Positions 28,405 to 42,292 of a stretch of 50,828 nt of DNA are shown here, piece after piece (position 1 is the first letter of the stretch; every line of letters starts with the position of its first letter). The notes under the pieces were generated by a model. It was not told where the DNA came from, did no database searches, and saw only the letters and a list, made by a program, of their open reading frames with translations. This DNA comes from a phage, in the sequence record PZ452605.1; one strand, written 5' to 3'. A program made the position numbers and the translations under genes.

Positions 28405-30402
28405 ATGATTCCAAATATCGAAAAACAAATATCAGCGTTAGGCGAGGCAGTAATAAAAAGCATCCAAGAGCGATTCACGGTTGGCAATATAGTGCCTTAT
28501 CCTTATCAGTGCGTTGCGTATGCCGAGATCGCAAAGCGCATGAAAAACTATGAGCATCCTTTCTTTGTTAAGGCTTCTGTGTCGGCTGGCAAAACATTGA
28601 TGTTTGCGATGGTTGCGGCGCAATGCCGCAAAATGGGATTGAAAATGATGGTCCTTGCTCGCCAGGCTGAAATTGTTGATCAGGATTCGGAAGAGATCAG
28701 CAATCTTGGAGTGCCAAACTCAATCTATTGCGCCGGACTGAAAACAAAAAGCGCATACTTTCCGATCGTGGTCGGTTCTGAGGGCACTGTAGTAAACGGA
28801 TTGTTTAAGTCGTTAGGTGATTATGTTCCGCACGTTATCGGTATTGATGAATGTCACCAGGTGGATTGGGAGGATCTCGCGGACGCGATAGAAAATAATG
28901 AATCTTACCAGCAGATGACCACTAAGAAGGATTTGCCAGTACTGATTGGAGAAGAACAGCAATTTGATTCCAATGGCGATCCAATGTTCGGAACAGGACG
29001 CACACAGTACACCGTAATAATCATGGAAATGATGCGCAGGTGTCGCGAGGCATACGGGCACGAATTGCGAATATTCGGTATGACTGGATCTGAATTTCGC
29101 GGCGTGGTTCCAATACTGGTTGAAGATAAGAACAAAAAGGGATTCTGGCGTGAGCAGGTGACTAACATAGACACAAACTACTTAATCAAATTCGGTTCGG
29201 TAGTGCCAACAAACTTCGGCGACGTAGGCGACCTGGGTTATGACCTTTCAGAGTTCGAAGCCAGTAGCGAGGATGGCGTTTCAGACTTTGACGCTAAAAC
29301 ATTGCGCAAGATGGAAGAAAAGATCCATCAAGACGCAACAATGACACAGAAAATCATGGCTAAAGTCCATGAGATATGCAAAGACAGGAACGGAGTTTTA
29401 GTTACATGCGCAGGGGAAAGGCACTGCAAGGAGGCCGCCGCCGCACTGCCGCCAGGCGTTGAATACAGGATCATAACTGGCAAGACTGGAGATAATCAGC
29501 GTAAAGAGTGGCTGAGGGAGGCATGCGAGGGAAAAGTAAAATACATCTTCCAGGTACAGGCGCTTACCACTGGCGTTAACGTTCCGTTTTGGGATACTTC
29601 GGTAATACTGAGAAAGATAGGATCTCTAACATTGCTTATCCAGCTTTTGGGGCGCGGCATGCGACTGCTTAAGCAATGGCACATTGAGCAGGGATTCAAG
29701 AAAAAAGATCATCTTGTATTGGATTTTGCAGGTACTATGGATGAGTTAGGTGATTTGTATTTCGATCCAATCCTTGAGCAAGCGCAATTCCAAAAGAGAT
29801 TTACAAACGGGAAAGAGCCTAAGACTTGTCCGATATGTGGAACGCTAAACAGCTTTTACGCTCGCCGATGTATGCACGTAGACGATAACGGGAAGCGATG
29901 TGAGCATTTTTGGACTTACAGAATTTGCGAGGACCAGGTAGATCCGAGAACGAAAAAGATAATCAAGCGCGGTTGCGGAACAAAAAACGACGTAGTGGCG
30001 AGAGTATGCCGTTGTTGCGATATTTCTCTTGTCGATCCTAACGAGAAGTTAAGCGGTAAGCACTACACCAAAAACGATTGGTGCAACGTTAAATCTTTCC
30101 GCGTTGATATGACGAAAAACCAGAAAGGAATTATTTTTTGCTATGAGCTTGAGGCCAACGGCGACACGTTCAAGGCATACGAAAGATTTTTCCCTGAGTC
30201 AGAAAGCAACATTTGCCGGACGATATGGAGAAAAATAGCATTGCAGCACATACCGGATCGCAAGATTGCTGGTATGGTGGCGAGCTATAGAAATGCTCGT
30301 AAAATAATGTCATACGCTCATCACATCATGCCGCCTGTACGCGTAACGCATCGCAAAAACGGCAAAGGTGAGGATAACATTGCAAAACGGGAGTTTGTTT
30401 AA
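28405..30402 (+). CDS. SF2 DEAD/DEAH-type DNA helicase
   Basis: 665 aa; Walker A SAGKT, motif II IDECHQ, C-terminal CxxC zinc-finger cluster. Confidence 0.7.
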   Translation: MIPNIEKQISALGEAVIKSIQERFTVGNIVPYPYQCVAYAEIAKRMKNYEHPFFVKASVSAGKTLMFAMVAAQCRKMGLKMMVLARQAEIVDQDSEEISNLGVPNSIYCAGLKTKSAYFPIVVGSEGTVVNGLFKSLGDYVPHVIGIDECHQVDWEDLADAIENNESYQQMTTKKDLPVLIGEEQQFDSNGDPMFGTGRTQYTVIIMEMMRRCREAYGHELRIFGMTGSEFRGVVPILVEDKNKKGFWREQVTNIDTNYLIKFGSVVPTNFGDVGDLGYDLSEFEASSEDGVSDFDAKTLRKMEEKIHQDATMTQKIMAKVHEICKDRNGVLVTCAGERHCKEAAAALPPGVEYRIITGKTGDNQRKEWLREACEGKVKYIFQVQALTTGVNVPFWDTSVILRKIGSLTLLIQLLGRGMRLLKQWHIEQGFKKKDHLVLDFAGTMDELGDLYFDPILEQAQFQKRFTNGKEPKTCPICGTLNSFYARRCMHVDDNGKRCEHFWTYRICEDQVDPRTKKIIKRGCGTKNDVVARVCRCCDISLVDPNEKLSGKHYTKNDWCNVKSFRVDMTKNQKGIIFCYELEANGDTFKAYERFFPESESNICRTIWRKIALQHIPDRKIAGMVASYRNARKIMSYAHHIMPPVRVTHRKNGKGEDNIAKREFV

Positions 30403-30821
30403 TGGCTATAACTGATAAAGGAGATTATCTTGAGTTTTACGAAAGAGATCCAACCGACACGAGAAAGGAAGTTAATCACCAGATAGATAGCTTTCAGTGG
30501 TTGACTTATGCTCATCCTTATTTGCTAGCGTGGCATACGGTAAACGAGAATGAGAAGTCGAAAGTAACTGCGATGATTGATCAGCAGTCCGGCTTGGTTA
30601 AGGGGGTAAGCGATTTCATCATCCTGATTGGTTCAAACGGAAAATACCCCTTTGCAGCGATTGAGATCAAACGAGTGAATAAATCAGGCAAGGGGAAAGC
30701 ATCACCAGTCAGCGATGAACAAAAGGCTTTTTTGCGTCGCGTTCGCAGCTTAGGAGGATTCGCTGCGGTCGCCTACGGATTTAATCAGTTTAAGTTAGCT
30801 ATTGAATACATGCTTAAATAG
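30402..30821 (+). CDS. VRR-NUC domain nuclease
   Basis: 139 aa; GVSDFIIL ... AIEIKR PD-(D/E)XK-like core; ATG overlaps helicase stop. Confidence 0.55.
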   Translation: MAITDKGDYLEFYERDPTDTRKEVNHQIDSFQWLTYAHPYLLAWHTVNENEKSKVTAMIDQQSGLVKGVSDFIILIGSNGKYPFAAIEIKRVNKSGKGKASPVSDEQKAFLRRVRSLGGFAAVAYGFNQFKLAIEYMLK

Positions 30822-30901: not shown

Positions 30902-31627
30902 ATGGCTAAAGATATTTTAGATAAAGACACCCATGACGCATTCGTTAGCTTTGAGCAGTTGGAGAGAGAAACGTTTATAGGAAATGCTCTTGCAACTGGA
31001 GGCCATTACCAGGCAGTAAAGCCAAATCAATATTATAAGGTAAGCGGCAACCGATACGCTGGAAGCACTACGCCGGACGTTGTGCGCGATATGTGGAGCA
31101 CGCCTCAAGAGATCGTGGAGTGGATGGAATCAGAATTTGGTGAATACGATCTCGACGCGGCAGCAAGCCAGGAAAACGCAGTTTGCGAGAAGTTCTACAG
31201 CAAGGAAACAAATTGCTTAAAGCGTTGGTGGGGTAGCAACAAGCACGTATGGCTTAACCCGCCGTACAGCAACCCAACTCCATTTATCAAGAAAGCAATT
31301 GAGCAAATGGAGCACAACAACCAAATTGATGTTTTGTTGCCATCCGACAACTCTACAGCATGGTTTTATGAGGCGCAGAAAAACGCGGCTGAAATCATCT
31401 GGATCACTGGCGAGGTTTGCGAAGAGGGTGGAGTAGAATACTCCCGCACAGGAAGAATCGCCTTTGTGTCTGGATTGACTGGCGAGCCTGTACAGGGCAA
31501 CAACAAGGGAAGCGTGATTTTTGTCATGCGCAAACTTAAAGAAGGAGAGGAGCAGAAAACGCGATACGTTAAGATCAGCGATATTTGCCCCTCTGTAACC
31601 GAACGCCGCGCGCGCAAACGGAGCTAA
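30902..31627 (+). CDS. dam: DNA N6-adenine methyltransferase (phage Dam type)
   Basis: DLDAAAS and NPPYS motifs; GGAG RBS 8 nt before ATG. Confidence 0.75.
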   Translation: MAKDILDKDTHDAFVSFEQLERETFIGNALATGGHYQAVKPNQYYKVSGNRYAGSTTPDVVRDMWSTPQEIVEWMESEFGEYDLDAAASQENAVCEKFYSKETNCLKRWWGSNKHVWLNPPYSNPTPFIKKAIEQMEHNNQIDVLLPSDNSTAWFYEAQKNAAEIIWITGEVCEEGGVEYSRTGRIAFVSGLTGEPVQGNNKGSVIFVMRKLKEGEEQKTRYVKISDICPSVTERRARKRS

Positions 31628-37312: not shown

Positions 37313-37530
37313 TTGATCCGCTCTATTGCAACCAGAAGTCGATCAGGCTGGCGGTCGCTGTAGCATTCTCCTGTAATCCCATCCTTAAACGTAAAGTAAA
37401 GCGCCTTATGATATGAAAAACCAATCAGCCAACCTACCGCCGTTTTTTTGATGGGCCTGACTATATCGCCAGGCTTGAAAGTCTTTGTGGTAGAATGCGT
37501 TACTTTGTAACGGTTTTCACTGTTTATCAC
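37309..37530 (-). CDS. hypothetical protein
   Basis: 73-aa ORF; stop embedded in intergenic motif. Confidence 0.4.
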   Translation of the reverse strand: MINSENRYKVTHSTTKTFKPGDIVRPIKKTAVGWLIGFSYHKALYFTFKDGITGECYSDRQPDRLLVAIERIK

Positions 37531-37919
37531 AGATATTTACCCTCAAAAAGATAACAGCCGCCAGCAGAGAATCCGACCTCTTCACGGTACAGGTTCCAGC
37601 GGTCGCCGCACTCATCAAAAACATAACCAGCAATGCTTCCAAGCGGTCGCCCTTTCTCGATCTGGTATCTCTTTCCCTGCTTAAAGTGCTTTTTGCACGG
37701 CATATTATGATCTACAAACGTGCAAAGAACGGTTTTTGTGTTAATGGCGCGGTAATCATCTCGGTTTGCTGGAAGCCAGCGGCTACCCTTAACAAGCGTC
37801 TTAACCTGGAATTCTTCCACCTCGATCACATCATTACTTCCTGCAATCTTCTGATAAACCGTTTTAAAACGGCCTTTCATCAATACGTTGGTTTCATTAC
37901 AGATAACATTCATGATCAT
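37527..37919 (-). CDS. hypothetical protein
   Basis: 130-aa ORF; AAGGAG RBS. Confidence 0.4.
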   Translation of the reverse strand: MIMNVICNETNVLMKGRFKTVYQKIAGSNDVIEVEEFQVKTLVKGSRWLPANRDDYRAINTKTVLCTFVDHNMPCKKHFKQGKRYQIEKGRPLGSIAGYVFDECGDRWNLYREEVGFSAGGCYLFEGKYL

Positions 37920-37965
37920 ATCTCCTTTGTTTGTTCGATGTGATTATGCCAGGTTTTACACCTGG

Positions 37966-37985
37966 CTTTTAACAAAAAGTGCTAT
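37966..37985 (-). repeat. intergenic motif copy, co-directional (minus)
   Basis: ATAGCACTTTTTGTTAAAAG containing stop TAG of methylase gene. Confidence 0.65.
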
Positions 37986-38692
37986 TTTGAGTTTGACTCA
38001 AAGACGGCGCGAGCAAAGCCGCGCGGAGTGAGGGAGCGGATCATCTTTGTGCGTGATGACTTGCCACCAGTTTTGGCCCAGCCTGGATTATCTTTGTCGT
38101 TCTCTTTCGGCAGGATTAAAGCGCGTGGAGGAATAACAAAGCCGTTGCCAGTCCAGAGGCACGTTTTCTTAAAGTAGCGATCCCGCGCCGGAATAATATC
38201 AGGGAAGTCGGGATGTTTATCATCTTCCGGCAGATAGCCAGCGTAATCGCACGGATGGAACGTATAATCAGGCTTACGCCATAACGTTGACAACTTGCCA
38301 ACCGGATTTTCGATCATGTAAGGAACACCGAAATAATCAGCTATATCAGCAGCGATTCTGCAAGTGTCGGCGGCCTCATCCTGGAACAATGGATTCTCAA
38401 GTCGTTTTTTGGCCCAATGGCGAGATCCGCTATTTGCAAGGTCGGTGCATGGTGGGAAGGCCATAATAAAATCAGGATTGCCCCACTCATTATTGATTGC
38501 CTTAACATAAAAAGCATCATCAATCCAGACGTTAACGTATTCGATATTCTTATGCTGTATGCGCACTGACTGGTAATCACCGTGATCGCCGCCGTCAGCA
38601 TTAAAGCAAATGCACTTATAGCCATTATCAGCCCAATCTTTAACGGCTTTACCAGATCCATCAAATAGGGAGAATATTAAACCTTTATACAT
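37982..38692 (-). CDS. DNA cytosine-5 methyltransferase (short orphan Dcm type)
   Basis: motif I FSLFDGSG, motif IV PPCTD catalytic Pro-Cys, motif VI ENP; GAGG RBS. Confidence 0.7.
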   Translation of the reverse strand: MYKGLIFSLFDGSGKAVKDWADNGYKCICFNADGGDHGDYQSVRIQHKNIEYVNVWIDDAFYVKAINNEWGNPDFIMAFPPCTDLANSGSRHWAKKRLENPLFQDEAADTCRIAADIADYFGVPYMIENPVGKLSTLWRKPDYTFHPCDYAGYLPEDDKHPDFPDIIPARDRYFKKTCLWTGNGFVIPPRALILPKENDKDNPGWAKTGGKSSRTKMIRSLTPRGFARAVFESNSK

Positions 38693-38702
38693 CGTCATTA
38701 CC

Positions 38703-38927
38703 TCAAAACGGAAAACAGCGCGGACAACTAGGATCGAAATCGCATCCACAATCATTAACAATCATATTGGGATCTGCAAATATTGCGCTTGATTCAAGAT
38801 CCATATCCATATCACCTAAAGCCTCATCAAGAGTCTTAATTTTATATGCCACTTCAAGCGCCGCCTCTTTATTTAGTCCGGCATCTTCTGCCATTTGAAG
38901 GCGTTCAAAAAATCCGTCCTGACTCAT
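38703..38927 (-). CDS. hypothetical acidic protein with C-terminal Cys cluster
   Basis: 74 aa; CGCDFDPSCPRC at C-terminus. Confidence 0.4.
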   Translation of the reverse strand: MSQDGFFERLQMAEDAGLNKEAALEVAYKIKTLDEALGDMDMDLESSAIFADPNMIVNDCGCDFDPSCPRCFPF

Positions 38928-42264: not shown

Positions 42265-42292
42265 TTGACACGCACCAAATAGCTTTTATAAT
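42265..42292 (+). promoter_or_regulatory. consensus sigma70 promoter (TTGACA-16-TATAAT)
   Basis: perfect -35 and -10 hexamers with 16-nt spacer, 30 nt upstream of ATG 42324. Confidence 0.65.

What the first reader, a model, noticed from the sequence alone, without database searches (positions are those of the whole stretch)
37982..38692. Orphan C5-cytosine methylase in the early cluster plus separate orphan Dam
A short Dcm-type methylase (FxGxG, PC and ENP motifs) with no adjacent endonuclease lies among early small genes, and a phage-type Dam with NPPY lies at 30902-31627. Two orphan methylases of different specificity suggest broad anti-restriction protection; the Dcm target is unknown.
Basis: partly seen in the sequence, partly recalled or inferred. 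Interest (0 to 1): 0.45.

Follow-up and report, generated by a model that had tools for sequence, protein, structure and literature searches.

The report
Known T1-like phage orphan methylases
The window is a T1-like coliphage genome with two stand-alone DNA methylases that are already annotated in its relatives, and the short cytosine methylase is a close ortholog of the phage protein already shown to methylate retron Ec86 DNA and trigger that bacterial defence.

Summary
Both genes are real and intact. The window is a Warwickvirus (Drexlerviridae), about 98% identical to phages tiwna, tonnikala and FritzSarasin, which annotate the same two genes.

The protein is 89% identical to the Dcm-like protein of phage KarlJaspers. 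Published work on a KarlJaspers strain (K42) showed that this 711-bp gene puts 5mC on retron Ec86 msDNA and triggers abortive infection. The published catalytic residues C82, E128, K175 and K176 are all present here.

The Dam (30902-31627) is a PF05869/TIGR01712 phage Dam, 66% identical to T1 Dam. No nuclease partner is present, so both are orphans.

"Broad anti-restriction" is not supported. The enzymes should cover only GATC and probably CCWGG. The genome instead shows strong palindrome avoidance.

The CCWGG assignment rests on indirect evidence. This is an ordinary, already described feature.

The parts
37982..38692 (-). Dcm-like orphan C5-cytosine DNA methyltransferase, 236 aa (PHROG 757); ortholog of the phage K42/KarlJaspers Dcm that triggers retron Ec86
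38701..38704 (-). Shine-Dalgarno GAGG of the methylase gene; overlaps the TGA stop (38703-38705) of the upstream 74-aa ORF
   Evidence: Sequence. The same GAGG is in KarlJaspers. K42 retron-escape mutants carry a point change 9 bp upstream of the start.
38651..38671 (-). Motif I, SLFDGSG (cofactor-binding FxGxG)
   Evidence: G12, S13 and G14 are invariant and F10 and D11 nearly so in 73 homologs. Aligns to the DNMT3B 'SLFDG'.
38441..38458 (-). Motif IV, FPPCTD, with catalytic Cys82
   Evidence: P81 and C82 are invariant. C82 is the residue mutated in the published inactive Dcm.
38300..38317 (-). Motif VI, MIENPV (Glu128; ENP in place of the canonical ENV)
   Evidence: E128, N129 and P130 are invariant. 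E128 was mutated in the published inactive Dcm.
38153..38185 (-). Motif VIII-like RDRYFKKTCLW (includes K175 and K176)
   Evidence: D171, Y173, K175 and W180 are invariant. K175 and K176 were mutated in the published inactive Dcm.
38057..38152 (-). Only about 32 residues (181-212) sit where canonical C5-methylases carry their target-recognition domain; contains the subtype-specific loop DNPGWAK
   Evidence: Protein length and motif spacing. Lowest model confidence is at residues 191-210. Two loop subtypes appear in the alignment.
38000..38041 (-). Motif X-like IRSLTPRGFARAVF before and in the last helix; R219, S220, T222, P223, R224 and G225 are invariant
   Evidence: The assignment to motif X is an inference from position and conservation, not from a residue-level superposition.
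30902..31627 (+). Orphan phage-type Dam (N6-adenine methyltransferase), 241 aa, NPPY at nt 31256-31267
   Evidence: PF05869 at 1.6e-61 and TIGR01712 at 180.5 bits. PADLOC 'orphan methyltransferase' at 5e-104. 66% identical to T1 ST20. Coordinates.
38703..38927 (-). Upstream 74-aa ORF of unknown function (phrog_9323); its stop overlaps the methylase ribosome-binding site
   Evidence: Conserved next to the methylase in FritzSarasin and KarlJaspers.
37527..37919 (-). Downstream 130-aa ORF of unknown function (phrog_2684); no Pfam or PADLOC family match (neither nuclease nor Vsr)

Best explanation
**What it is.** The ORF at 37982-38692 encodes an active, SAM-dependent DNA C5-cytosine methyltransferase. 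It belongs to a large, phage-specific family of very short enzymes (PHROG 757).

**How it works.**
- It keeps the catalytic core of the C5-methylase fold: motif I binds the cofactor, Cys82 of PPC attacks C6 of the flipped cytosine, and Glu128 of ENP protonates N3.
- It has almost no target-recognition domain, and it most resembles the DNMT3 catalytic domain.
- During infection it methylates phage DNA, and any other DNA in the cell, most probably at CCWGG like host Dcm. The neighbouring-module Dam methylates GATC.
- Both enzymes are orphans that copy host marks. They would keep fast-replicating phage DNA fully marked and protect it from enzymes of the EcoRII/SsoII (CCWGG/CCNGG) and MboI/DpnII (GATC) type, including in dcm- or dam- hosts.

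**The cost.** In hosts carrying retron Ec86/Eco1, the same activity methylates the msDNA stem-loop, activates the effector and aborts infection.

**Shown here:** gene integrity, motif conservation, fold, orthology, orphan status and purifying selection.

**Taken from the literature on orthologs:** 5mC formation, the retron trigger role and EcoRII resistance.

**Inferred:** CCWGG specificity of this particular protein and the protective role.
For: **Identity of the phage**
- The window is about 98% identical to Warwickvirus phages that annotate this gene as a Dcm-like or DNA methyltransferase.

**Family**
- phrog_757 'DNA methyltransferase', 7.5e-85.
- Homologs occur in 1498 of 50,697 phage records and in 1184 clusters at 50% identity, nearly all 210-260 aa.
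- A 57%-identical homolog (P0106) passes the Pfam PF00145 gathering score. A natural fusion to a D12-class N6-adenine methylase exists.

**Fold**
- Model pLDDT 92.
- The top 44 Foldseek PDB hits are all DNMT3A/B/C, E about 1e-7.

**Motifs and selection**
- Catalytic motifs are invariant in 73 homologs.
- dN/dS is 0.12 against KarlJaspers.

**Orthology to the tested enzyme**
- 89% identical to KarlJaspers Dcm with no gaps, same 711 bp, same synteny, and C82/E128/K175/K176 in place.
- The preprint on K42, a KarlJaspers strain, reports four results. Escapers of retron Ec86 disrupt this gene. Its expression is toxic only when the retron is present. LC-MS shows 5mC on msDNA, and that signal is lost in the C82A/E128A/K175A/K176A mutant. 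Mutating the msDNA CCTGG site abolishes defence.
- The work is cited as Cell Rep 2024;43:114857.

**Specificity clues**
- Phage AAS23 has a 61%-identical enzyme at the same locus, and its DNA resists EcoRII and MboI.
- CCWGG observed/expected is 0.91-1.14 in six carrier genomes (736 observed, 733 expected). It is 0.83 and 0.78 in the non-carriers T1 and RTP (158 observed, 196 expected).
- GATC observed/expected is 0.78-1.12 in Dam carriers and 0.35 in RTP, which has no Dam.
Against: - No curated model recognises this protein directly: Pfam, NCBIfam, PADLOC and PDB sequence searches all gave nothing.
- The profile match to DNMT3B is not significant (E 0.27). hhalign against E. coli Dcm aligns only motif IV. 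The C-terminal half has no sequence-level match to any solved methylase.
- The TRD position holds only about 32 residues. How five base pairs could be read is unexplained.
- The CCWGG assignment in the literature is by analogy to host Dcm plus site mutagenesis, which could also have disturbed effector binding.
- MG1655 used in those experiments is dcm+, yet it showed low msDNA 5mC and no self-triggering. The phage enzyme must therefore differ from host Dcm in level, access or specificity.
- AAS23 virion methylation could come from its host.
- The k-mer comparison uses eight genomes that are not phylogenetically independent, and the CCWGG effect is small.
- BASEL found no link between these methylases and restriction resistance.
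Confidence: 0.75

Rival explanations
1. It is an active C5-methylase, but not a Dcm mimic. With almost no recognition domain, it has a different, shorter or relaxed specificity. For example, it may methylate the outer cytosine, use a shorter motif, or accept hairpin or single-stranded DNA such as msDNA. That difference would be what lets retron Ec86 tell phage methylation from host methylation.
For: - Only about 32 residues sit at the TRD position.
- The best structural match is DNMT3, which reads a 2-bp site.
- There is no detectable similarity to E. coli Dcm beyond motif IV.
- dcm+ MG1655 does not methylate msDNA much and does not trigger Ec86, whereas the phage enzyme does.
- The authors note that the phage Dcm is itself toxic.
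- Two distinct loop subtypes (DNPGW and GYSxQH) occur in the family, and a 45%-identical allele is swapped in at the same locus in PeterMerian. This suggests more than one specificity in the family.
Against: - Changing either C of the msDNA CCTGG site abolishes defence.
- AAS23 DNA resists EcoRII.
- CCWGG is not avoided in carriers but is mildly avoided in non-carriers.
- Close relatives were isolated on wild-type MG1655, which I recall is McrBC+. From my own knowledge of McrBC, that argues against widespread purine-5mC methylation.
Confidence: 0.18
2. It is a carboxymethyltransferase of the CmoX type. It would use host-made carboxy-SAM to install 5-carboxymethylcytosine, instead of or in addition to 5mC.
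For: - CmoX is defined by an Arg replacing the motif X Asn that contacts the carboxymethyl group.
- The window protein has an invariant Arg219 in its motif X-like IRSLTP.
- E. coli makes Cx-SAM through CmoA.
Against: - LC-MS on the ortholog detected 5mC.
- The second defining motif is SPPC in CmoX but FPPC here.
- No CmoA or amide ligase is annotated in KarlJaspers or in the matching FritzSarasin region.
- From memory, DNMT3A/B also carry Arg at this position and use SAM.
- I could not verify that R219 aligns with the motif X Asn.
Confidence: 0.04
3. It is a degenerate or non-DNA enzyme, for example an inactive remnant or a Dnmt2-like RNA methylase.
For: - No curated family model detects it.
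Against: - All catalytic residues are invariant.
- dN/dS is 0.12.
- The ortholog methylates DNA in vivo, and activity depends on the catalytic residues.
- The DNMT3 and bacterial DNA methylases score higher than Dnmt2.
Confidence: 0.02
4. It is the methylase half of a compact restriction-modification or toxin-like module, and its nuclease partner is one of the small flanking ORFs.
For: The flanking ORFs of 74 and 130 aa have unknown function and are syntenic in relatives.
Against: - Neither neighbour matches any Pfam or PADLOC family, nuclease or otherwise.
- Homologs sit in different contexts: next to a helicase in Gluttony, at the genome end in Shfl1, and with an extra ORF in PeterMerian.
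Confidence: 0.01

Closest known systems
Dcm of phage K42 / KarlJaspers (Bas06), the trigger of retron Ec86 (Eco1) (Wang et al., bioRxiv 10.1101/2023.08.16.553469; Cell Rep 2024;43:114857)
   Same: - 89% identical over all 236 residues with no gaps.
- Same 711-bp gene and same Shine-Dalgarno.
- Same position after the DUF3987 helicase and two small ORFs.
- C82, E128, K175 and K176 are conserved.
   Different: - It comes from a different genus (Warwickvirus, not Hanrivervirus).
- There are 25 substitutions, mostly in residues 23-120.
- Activity and retron triggering have not been tested for this allele.
Catalytic domain of eukaryotic DNMT3A/DNMT3B
   Same: - It is the only family reached by the sequence profile. 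The match runs over motifs I-IV: SLFDG, I.YVN and PC.DL.
- It also has a short recognition region.
   Different: - About 18% identity, and the profile match is not significant (E 0.27).
- The phage protein is about 45 residues shorter still.
- It has none of the regulatory domains.
E. coli Dcm / M.EcoRII (CCWGG methylases)
   Same: - Same chemistry and fold class.
- The literature assigns the phage enzyme the same CCWGG target.
- Relatives are annotated as 'dcm'.
   Different: - E. coli Dcm is 472 aa with a full recognition domain and is paired with vsr.
- hhalign finds only motif IV (probability 1.3%).
- There is no vsr-like neighbour here.
- Host Dcm does not trigger Ec86, whereas the phage enzyme does.
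Phage T1 Dam (ST20) and the PF05869/TIGR01712 phage Dam family
   Same: - The window Dam is 66% identical to T1 ST20.
- It passes the equivalog model.
- It has the same position after the helicase and VRR-NUC genes.
- From memory, T1 Dam is a biochemically characterised GATC methylase (Auer and Schweiger 1984; Schneider-Scherzer et al. 1990).
   Different: - The N-terminal 23 residues are not alignable.
- Specificity has not been tested for this allele.
CmoX, the phage DNA cytosine C5-carboxymethyltransferase (PDB 8yf3)
   Same: - An invariant Arg sits in the motif X-like segment, and CmoX uses an Arg there to bind Cx-SAM.
   Different: - FPPC here, not SPPC.
- No phage CmoA or ligase genes.
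- The ortholog makes 5mC.
Phage SPR cytosine methylase, the trigger of the Dazbog defence system
   Same: It is another phage orphan C5-methylase whose activity both protects phage DNA and sensitises the phage to an abortive-infection system.
   Different: - By my knowledge it is a large multispecific enzyme with several recognition domains.
- It comes from a different host and is sensed by a different system.

Membership tests
DNA C5-cytosine methyltransferase superfamily (Pfam PF00145) | Motif I FxGxG (cofactor binding) | tested here: met
   F10-D-G-S-G14. G12, S13 and G14 are invariant in 73 homologs.
DNA C5-cytosine methyltransferase superfamily (Pfam PF00145) | Motif IV Pro-Cys with the catalytic cysteine | tested here: met
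   P81-C82 is invariant. It aligns to the PC of DNMT3B and of E. coli Dcm.
DNA C5-cytosine methyltransferase superfamily (Pfam PF00145) | Motif VI ENV glutamate | tested here: met
   E128-N129-P130 is invariant, with Pro in place of Val.
DNA C5-cytosine methyltransferase superfamily (Pfam PF00145) | Score above the Pfam gathering threshold | tested here: not met
   This protein gets no PF00145 hit even at E 0.1. The 57%-identical homolog P0106 passes (24.7 bits against 22), but only over motifs I-IV.
DNA C5-cytosine methyltransferase superfamily (Pfam PF00145) | C5-methylase fold | tested here: met
   [not shown]
DNA C5-cytosine methyltransferase superfamily (Pfam PF00145) | Sizeable target-recognition domain between motifs VIII and IX | tested here: not met
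   Only about 32 residues (181-212) lie between motif VIII-like and the C-terminal conserved block. The whole family is 210-260 aa.
DNA C5-cytosine methyltransferase superfamily (Pfam PF00145) | Motif X (GN...) closing the cofactor pocket | tested here: inconclusive
   The invariant segment I-R-S-L-T-P-R-G precedes the last helix. No residue-level alignment to a canonical motif X could be obtained.
DNA C5-cytosine methyltransferase superfamily (Pfam PF00145) | Makes 5-methylcytosine in DNA | not testable with these tools
   Reported for the 89%-identical ortholog by LC-MS and lost in the catalytic mutant.
E. coli Dcm / EcoRII-type CCWGG methylases | Sequence relationship to Dcm beyond the universal motifs | tested here: not met
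   hhalign of the 73-sequence profile against MG1655 Dcm aligns 24 columns around motif IV, probability 1.3%.
E. coli Dcm / EcoRII-type CCWGG methylases | Methylation of the inner C of CCWGG | not testable with these tools
   The evidence is indirect. The msDNA CCTGG site is required for the retron response. AAS23 DNA resists EcoRII. CCWGG is not avoided in carriers.
E. coli Dcm / EcoRII-type CCWGG methylases | Linked vsr repair gene or EcoRII nuclease | tested here: not met
   The neighbours have no Vsr or nuclease match. For comparison, dcm and vsr overlap in MG1655.
PHROG 757 short phage methylases, including the retron Ec86 trigger | Full-length match to the family profile | tested here: met
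   7.5e-85, residues 2-235.
PHROG 757 short phage methylases, including the retron Ec86 trigger | Orthology to the tested K42/KarlJaspers protein | tested here: met
   89% identity with no gaps, same locus, same functional residues.
PHROG 757 short phage methylases, including the retron Ec86 trigger | Activates retron Ec86 | not testable with these tools
   Published for K42. 34 of 35 Ec86-sensitive phages in that collection encode a Dcm.
Phage Dam (Pfam PF05869 / TIGR01712) | Score above the curated cutoffs | tested here: met
   207.3 bits against 28.1, and 180.5 bits against 97.05.
Phage Dam (Pfam PF05869 / TIGR01712) | Catalytic (D/N)PPY motif | tested here: met
   NPPY at residues 119-122, conserved in T1 Dam.
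Phage Dam (Pfam PF05869 / TIGR01712) | GATC methylation | not testable with these tools
   The evidence is indirect. GATC is not avoided in Dam carriers, but observed/expected is 0.35 in Dam-less RTP. AAS23 DNA resists MboI.
Type II restriction-modification system | Adjacent cognate restriction endonuclease | tested here: not met
   No nuclease lies next to the Dcm-like gene. The VRR-NUC gene next to Dam is also present in Dam-less RTP.
CmoX C5-carboxymethyltransferases | SPPC motif plus Arg replacing the motif X Asn, usually with phage CmoA | tested here: not met
   FPPC instead of SPPC. The Arg position is unverified. No CmoA is annotated in relatives.

The most novel reading that the evidence does not exclude
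The short enzyme is not a Dcm copy. It would be a minimal, DNMT3-like methylase whose real specificity or substrate range differs from host Dcm. It might methylate another cytosine, use a shorter motif, or accept hairpin DNA. Family members with different recognition loops would carry different specificities and be exchanged as cassettes at one locus. Retron Ec86 would then be reading a non-host methylation pattern rather than CCWGG methylation as such.
Probability: 0.2. Interest if true: 0.5.

Novelty: already known. Interest (0 to 1): 0.18.

Why it matters
- The gene pair has been annotated in T1-like phages since phage TLS. The cytosine methylase has a published function as the retron Ec86 trigger, so this window adds no new kind of element.
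- The practical value is predictive. This phage should carry Dam and probably Dcm-type marks whatever its host. It should be blocked by hosts carrying retron Ec86/Eco1, such as E. coli BL21. It should escape by losing this gene.
- Two points remain open for the family, which occurs in about 3% of sequenced phage genomes. One is how a 236-aa enzyme with almost no recognition domain reads its site. The other is what benefit outweighs the retron liability.

Tried and rejected
**Searches that found nothing for the cytosine methylase**
- Pfam, NCBIfam, PADLOC and PDB sequence searches with the single protein all returned nothing.
- The family profile against PDB sequences gave only a non-significant DNMT3B match.
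- hhalign of the profile against E. coli Dcm aligned only motif IV.
- A profile of the C-terminal half gave no methylase hit. I therefore could not map motifs VIII-X residue by residue or confirm that R219 occupies the motif X Asn position.

**Ideas rejected**
- The 130-aa downstream ORF is not a Vsr-like or nuclease partner; it has no family hit.
- The VRR-NUC gene is not a restriction partner of Dam, because it is present in Dam-less RTP.
- CpG specificity, by analogy to DNMT3, is unlikely. CpG-containing 6-bp palindromes are purged like the others.
- CCSGG depletion is not a signature of the methylase. It is confined to Tempevirinae and absent in the carriers Shfl1 and Gluttony.

**Literature and limits**
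- Searches for T1 Dam biochemistry and for the Murphy et al. review found nothing usable in the held library.
- The 'early gene' label could not be tested. The promoter scan found no more sites than shuffled sequence.
Full report
**What the window is.** The 2.1 kb around the finding is 97-98.5% identical to Escherichia phages tiwna, tonijn, tonnikala and FritzSarasin. FritzSarasin is classified as Drexlerviridae, Tempevirinae, Warwickvirus, and its gene coordinates nearly coincide with the window's. The window is therefore essentially a complete T1-like phage genome. In these records the two genes are already annotated as 'Dcm-like C5 cytosine methyltransferase' (or 'DNA methyltransferase' or 'dcm') and 'Dam-like N6-adenine methyltransferase'. 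Phage TLS already carries both as 'dam' and 'dcm' at the same positions.

**Checking the observation.**
- The minus-strand ORF ending at 37982 is listed mechanically from TTG 38761, but ATG 38692 is the real start.
- A GAGG lies 8 nt upstream and overlaps the stop codon of the preceding 74-aa ORF.
- Homologs begin there, and the studied ortholog is the same 711 bp.
- The protein has SLFDGSG (residues 8-14), FPPCTD (79-84) and MIENPV (126-131).
- In 73 homologs at 54-82% identity, G12, S13, G14, P81, C82, E128, N129 and P130 are invariant. So is a C-terminal block, R219-S220-x-T222-P223-R224-G225.
- dN/dS against the KarlJaspers ortholog is 0.12.
- The Dam at 30902-31627 has NPPY at residues 119-122. 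It matches PF05869 (1.6e-61) and the TIGR01712 equivalog (180.5 bits, cutoff 97). It is 66% identical to T1 ST20.
- Both observations are confirmed.

**What the cytosine methylase is.**
- Curated libraries miss it. Pfam, NCBIfam and PADLOC gave no hit, and so did a PDB sequence search.
- PHROG 757 'DNA methyltransferase' matches at 7.5e-85.
- The family is large and phage-specific. It occurs in 1498 of 50,697 phage records, including Drexlerviridae, Klebsiella Webervirus, Dhillonvirus and phages of 135-165 kb.
- It has 2950 relatives at 90% clustering and 1184 clusters at 50% identity, almost all 210-260 aa.
- One 57%-identical member passes the PF00145 gathering score over motifs I-IV. One member is fused to a D12-class adenine methylase.
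- An AlphaFold2 model built on 73 sequences is confident (pLDDT 92, pTM 0.89).
- Foldseek against the PDB returns DNMT3A/B/C catalytic domains as the top 44 hits, E about 1e-7.
- The only PDB family the sequence profile reaches is DNMT3B, over motifs I-IV, at a non-significant E of 0.27.
- The protein is a C5-methylase core that most resembles DNMT3. Only about 32 residues (181-212) sit where other enzymes carry a recognition domain.
- It has no detectable relationship to E. coli Dcm beyond motif IV.

**Link to published experiments.**
- A preprint (10.1101/2023.08.16.553469, later Cell Rep 2024;43:114857) isolated escapers of retron Ec86 from phage K42, a strain of KarlJaspers (Bas06).
- All four escapers disrupted a 711-bp 'dcm' gene or a base 9 bp upstream of it.
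- Expression of the protein was toxic only with the retron present.
- LC-MS showed 5mC on msDNA, and the signal was lost in a C82A/E128A/K175A/K176A mutant.
- Mutating the msDNA CCTGG site abolished defence.
- 34 of 35 Ec86-sensitive phages encoded a Dcm.
- I fetched KarlJaspers. Its bas06_0055 sits at the same place, after the DUF3987 helicase and two small ORFs.
- It is 89% identical to the window protein with no gaps. The window protein has C, E, K and K at exactly positions 82, 128, 175 and 176. The -9 position is the G of the shared GAGG.
- The window gene is thus an ortholog of a characterised retron trigger.
- Independently, Pantoea phage AAS23 has a 61%-identical gene at the same locus, and its DNA resists EcoRII and MboI.

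**Orphan status and context.**
- The flanking ORFs are 42-130 aa, of unknown function, and have no nuclease or defence-system match.
- The family member sits in other contexts in Gluttony, Shfl1 and PeterMerian.
- T1 and RTP lack the gene entirely by tblastn, so it is accessory.
- The Dam follows a helicase and a VRR-NUC protein. RTP keeps those two genes but has no Dam.

**Does it give broad anti-restriction protection?**
- BASEL reported FritzSarasin as highly restriction-resistant but saw no pattern linking methylases to resistance.
- Its panel was EcoKI, EcoCFT_I, EcoRI, EcoRV, EcoCFT_II and EcoP1_I. None of the four sites I recalled (EcoKI, EcoRI, EcoRV, EcoP1) contains GATC or CCWGG; I did not look up the two EcoCFT sites.
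- Counts against first-order Markov simulations are: EcoRI 2 against 20.5, EcoRV 1 against 10.6, EcoKI 0 against 6.5, EcoP1 24 against 52.
- 19 of 64 six-base palindromes are absent, with an overall observed/expected ratio of 0.64.
- Site avoidance is the visible broad strategy. The methylases are narrow.

**In-silico test of the targets.** I computed maximal-order Markov observed/expected ratios in eight genomes.
- GATC is 0.78-1.12 in the seven Dam carriers. It is 0.35 (72 observed, 205 expected) in RTP, the only genome without Dam.
- CCWGG is 0.91-1.14 in the six carriers of the short methylase (736 observed, 733 expected). It is 0.83 in T1 and 0.78 in RTP (158 observed, 196 expected).
- Within one genus, the carrier Shfl1 is at 1.02 and the non-carrier T1 is at 0.83.
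- This fits GATC clearly and CCWGG weakly.
- The sample is small and not phylogenetically independent, and host Dcm is a confounder.

**What remains open.**
- The CCWGG assignment is indirect.
- MG1655, the host used in the retron experiments, has dcm. Even so, msDNA carried little 5mC and the retron stayed silent without the phage enzyme. The phage enzyme therefore differs from host Dcm in amount, access or specificity.
- The alignment shows two recognition-loop subtypes, DNPGW and GYSxQH.
- PeterMerian shares a 94%-identical backbone but carries a 45%-identical allele swapped in between window positions 38038 and 38695. One breakpoint lies inside the conserved 3' end of the gene.
- I give about 0.2 to the reading that the specificity is not simply Dcm-like.
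- The CmoX lead rests on an Arg in the motif X position that binds carboxy-SAM. It is unlikely here for four reasons. The ortholog makes 5mC. The SPPC motif is FPPC. No CmoA is annotated in relatives. From memory, DNMT3 has the same Arg and uses SAM.

**Verdict.** The feature is already known both as annotation and, for the cytosine methylase, as a published retron trigger.

Noticed in passing
whole window: Strong restriction-site avoidance. 19 of 64 six-base palindromes are absent, for example AAGCTT 0 against 17 expected and AGGCCT 0 against 13. EcoRI is 2 against 20, EcoRV 1 against 11, and EcoKI 0 against 6.5. This probably explains the restriction resistance reported for the near-identical FritzSarasin.
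   Followed up: partly
whole window; L004, L008, L009: CCSGG is almost purged in the Tempevirinae phages although CCWGG is at expectation. Counts are window 7 against 20 expected, KarlJaspers 2 against 12, TLS 0 against 17, PeterMerian 7 against 18. It is not purged in T1, RTP, Shfl1 or Gluttony. This may reflect pressure from CCSGG/CCNGG enzymes, with the CCWGG subset protected by methylation.
   Followed up: partly
L007 (phage RTP): RTP has neither Dam nor the short cytosine methylase, and it avoids GATC strongly (72 observed, 205 expected). Dam carriers do not avoid GATC.
   Followed up: partly
window 38038-38695; L009 38218-39421: PeterMerian has the same genus and a 94%-identical backbone, but carries a 45%-identical methylase allele plus an extra 528-bp ORF at this locus. 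One breakpoint lies inside the conserved last 57 nt of the gene, so the replacement looks cassette-like. Several other phages match only those last 57 nt.
   Followed up: partly
window 37948-37966: A stable hairpin lies 15 nt after the methylase stop codon. Its arms are GCCAGGT and ACCTGGC, so each arm contains a CCWGG site. The z-score for the 76-nt region is -3.9. A T-run follows only on the plus strand.
   Followed up: no
window 30402-30821: A VRR-NUC domain protein lies directly upstream of Dam and downstream of the 665-aa helicase. It is conserved in T1, TLS and AAS23, and also in Dam-less RTP.
   Followed up: partly
window 42265-42292 (+): A perfect sigma-70 consensus promoter (TTGACA, 16 nt, TATAAT) sits in the divergent intergenic region between the leftward small-gene cluster and the rightward cluster.
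   Followed up: no
alignment A1, window residues about 195-210: The family splits into two recognition-loop subtypes, DNPGW(A/K)K and GYSxQHxK. The window, KarlJaspers, TLS and AAS23 all have the first.
   Followed up: no
P0239: A 563-aa protein is a natural fusion of a PHROG 757-type N-terminal domain with a C-terminal D12-class N6-adenine methylase.
   Followed up: no
L011 49532-50000 (Shfl1): Shfl1 is a close T1 relative. It carries a 56%-identical homolog of the short methylase at a different locus near the genome end, whereas T1 has none.
   Followed up: no
phage database hits: 39 records labelled Campylobacter phage encode a homolog at about 54% identity, for example A12a (135 kb). 20 such records match the 2.1-kb query by megablast. 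This is odd for a coliphage-type gene and may reflect mislabelled hosts.
   Followed up: no
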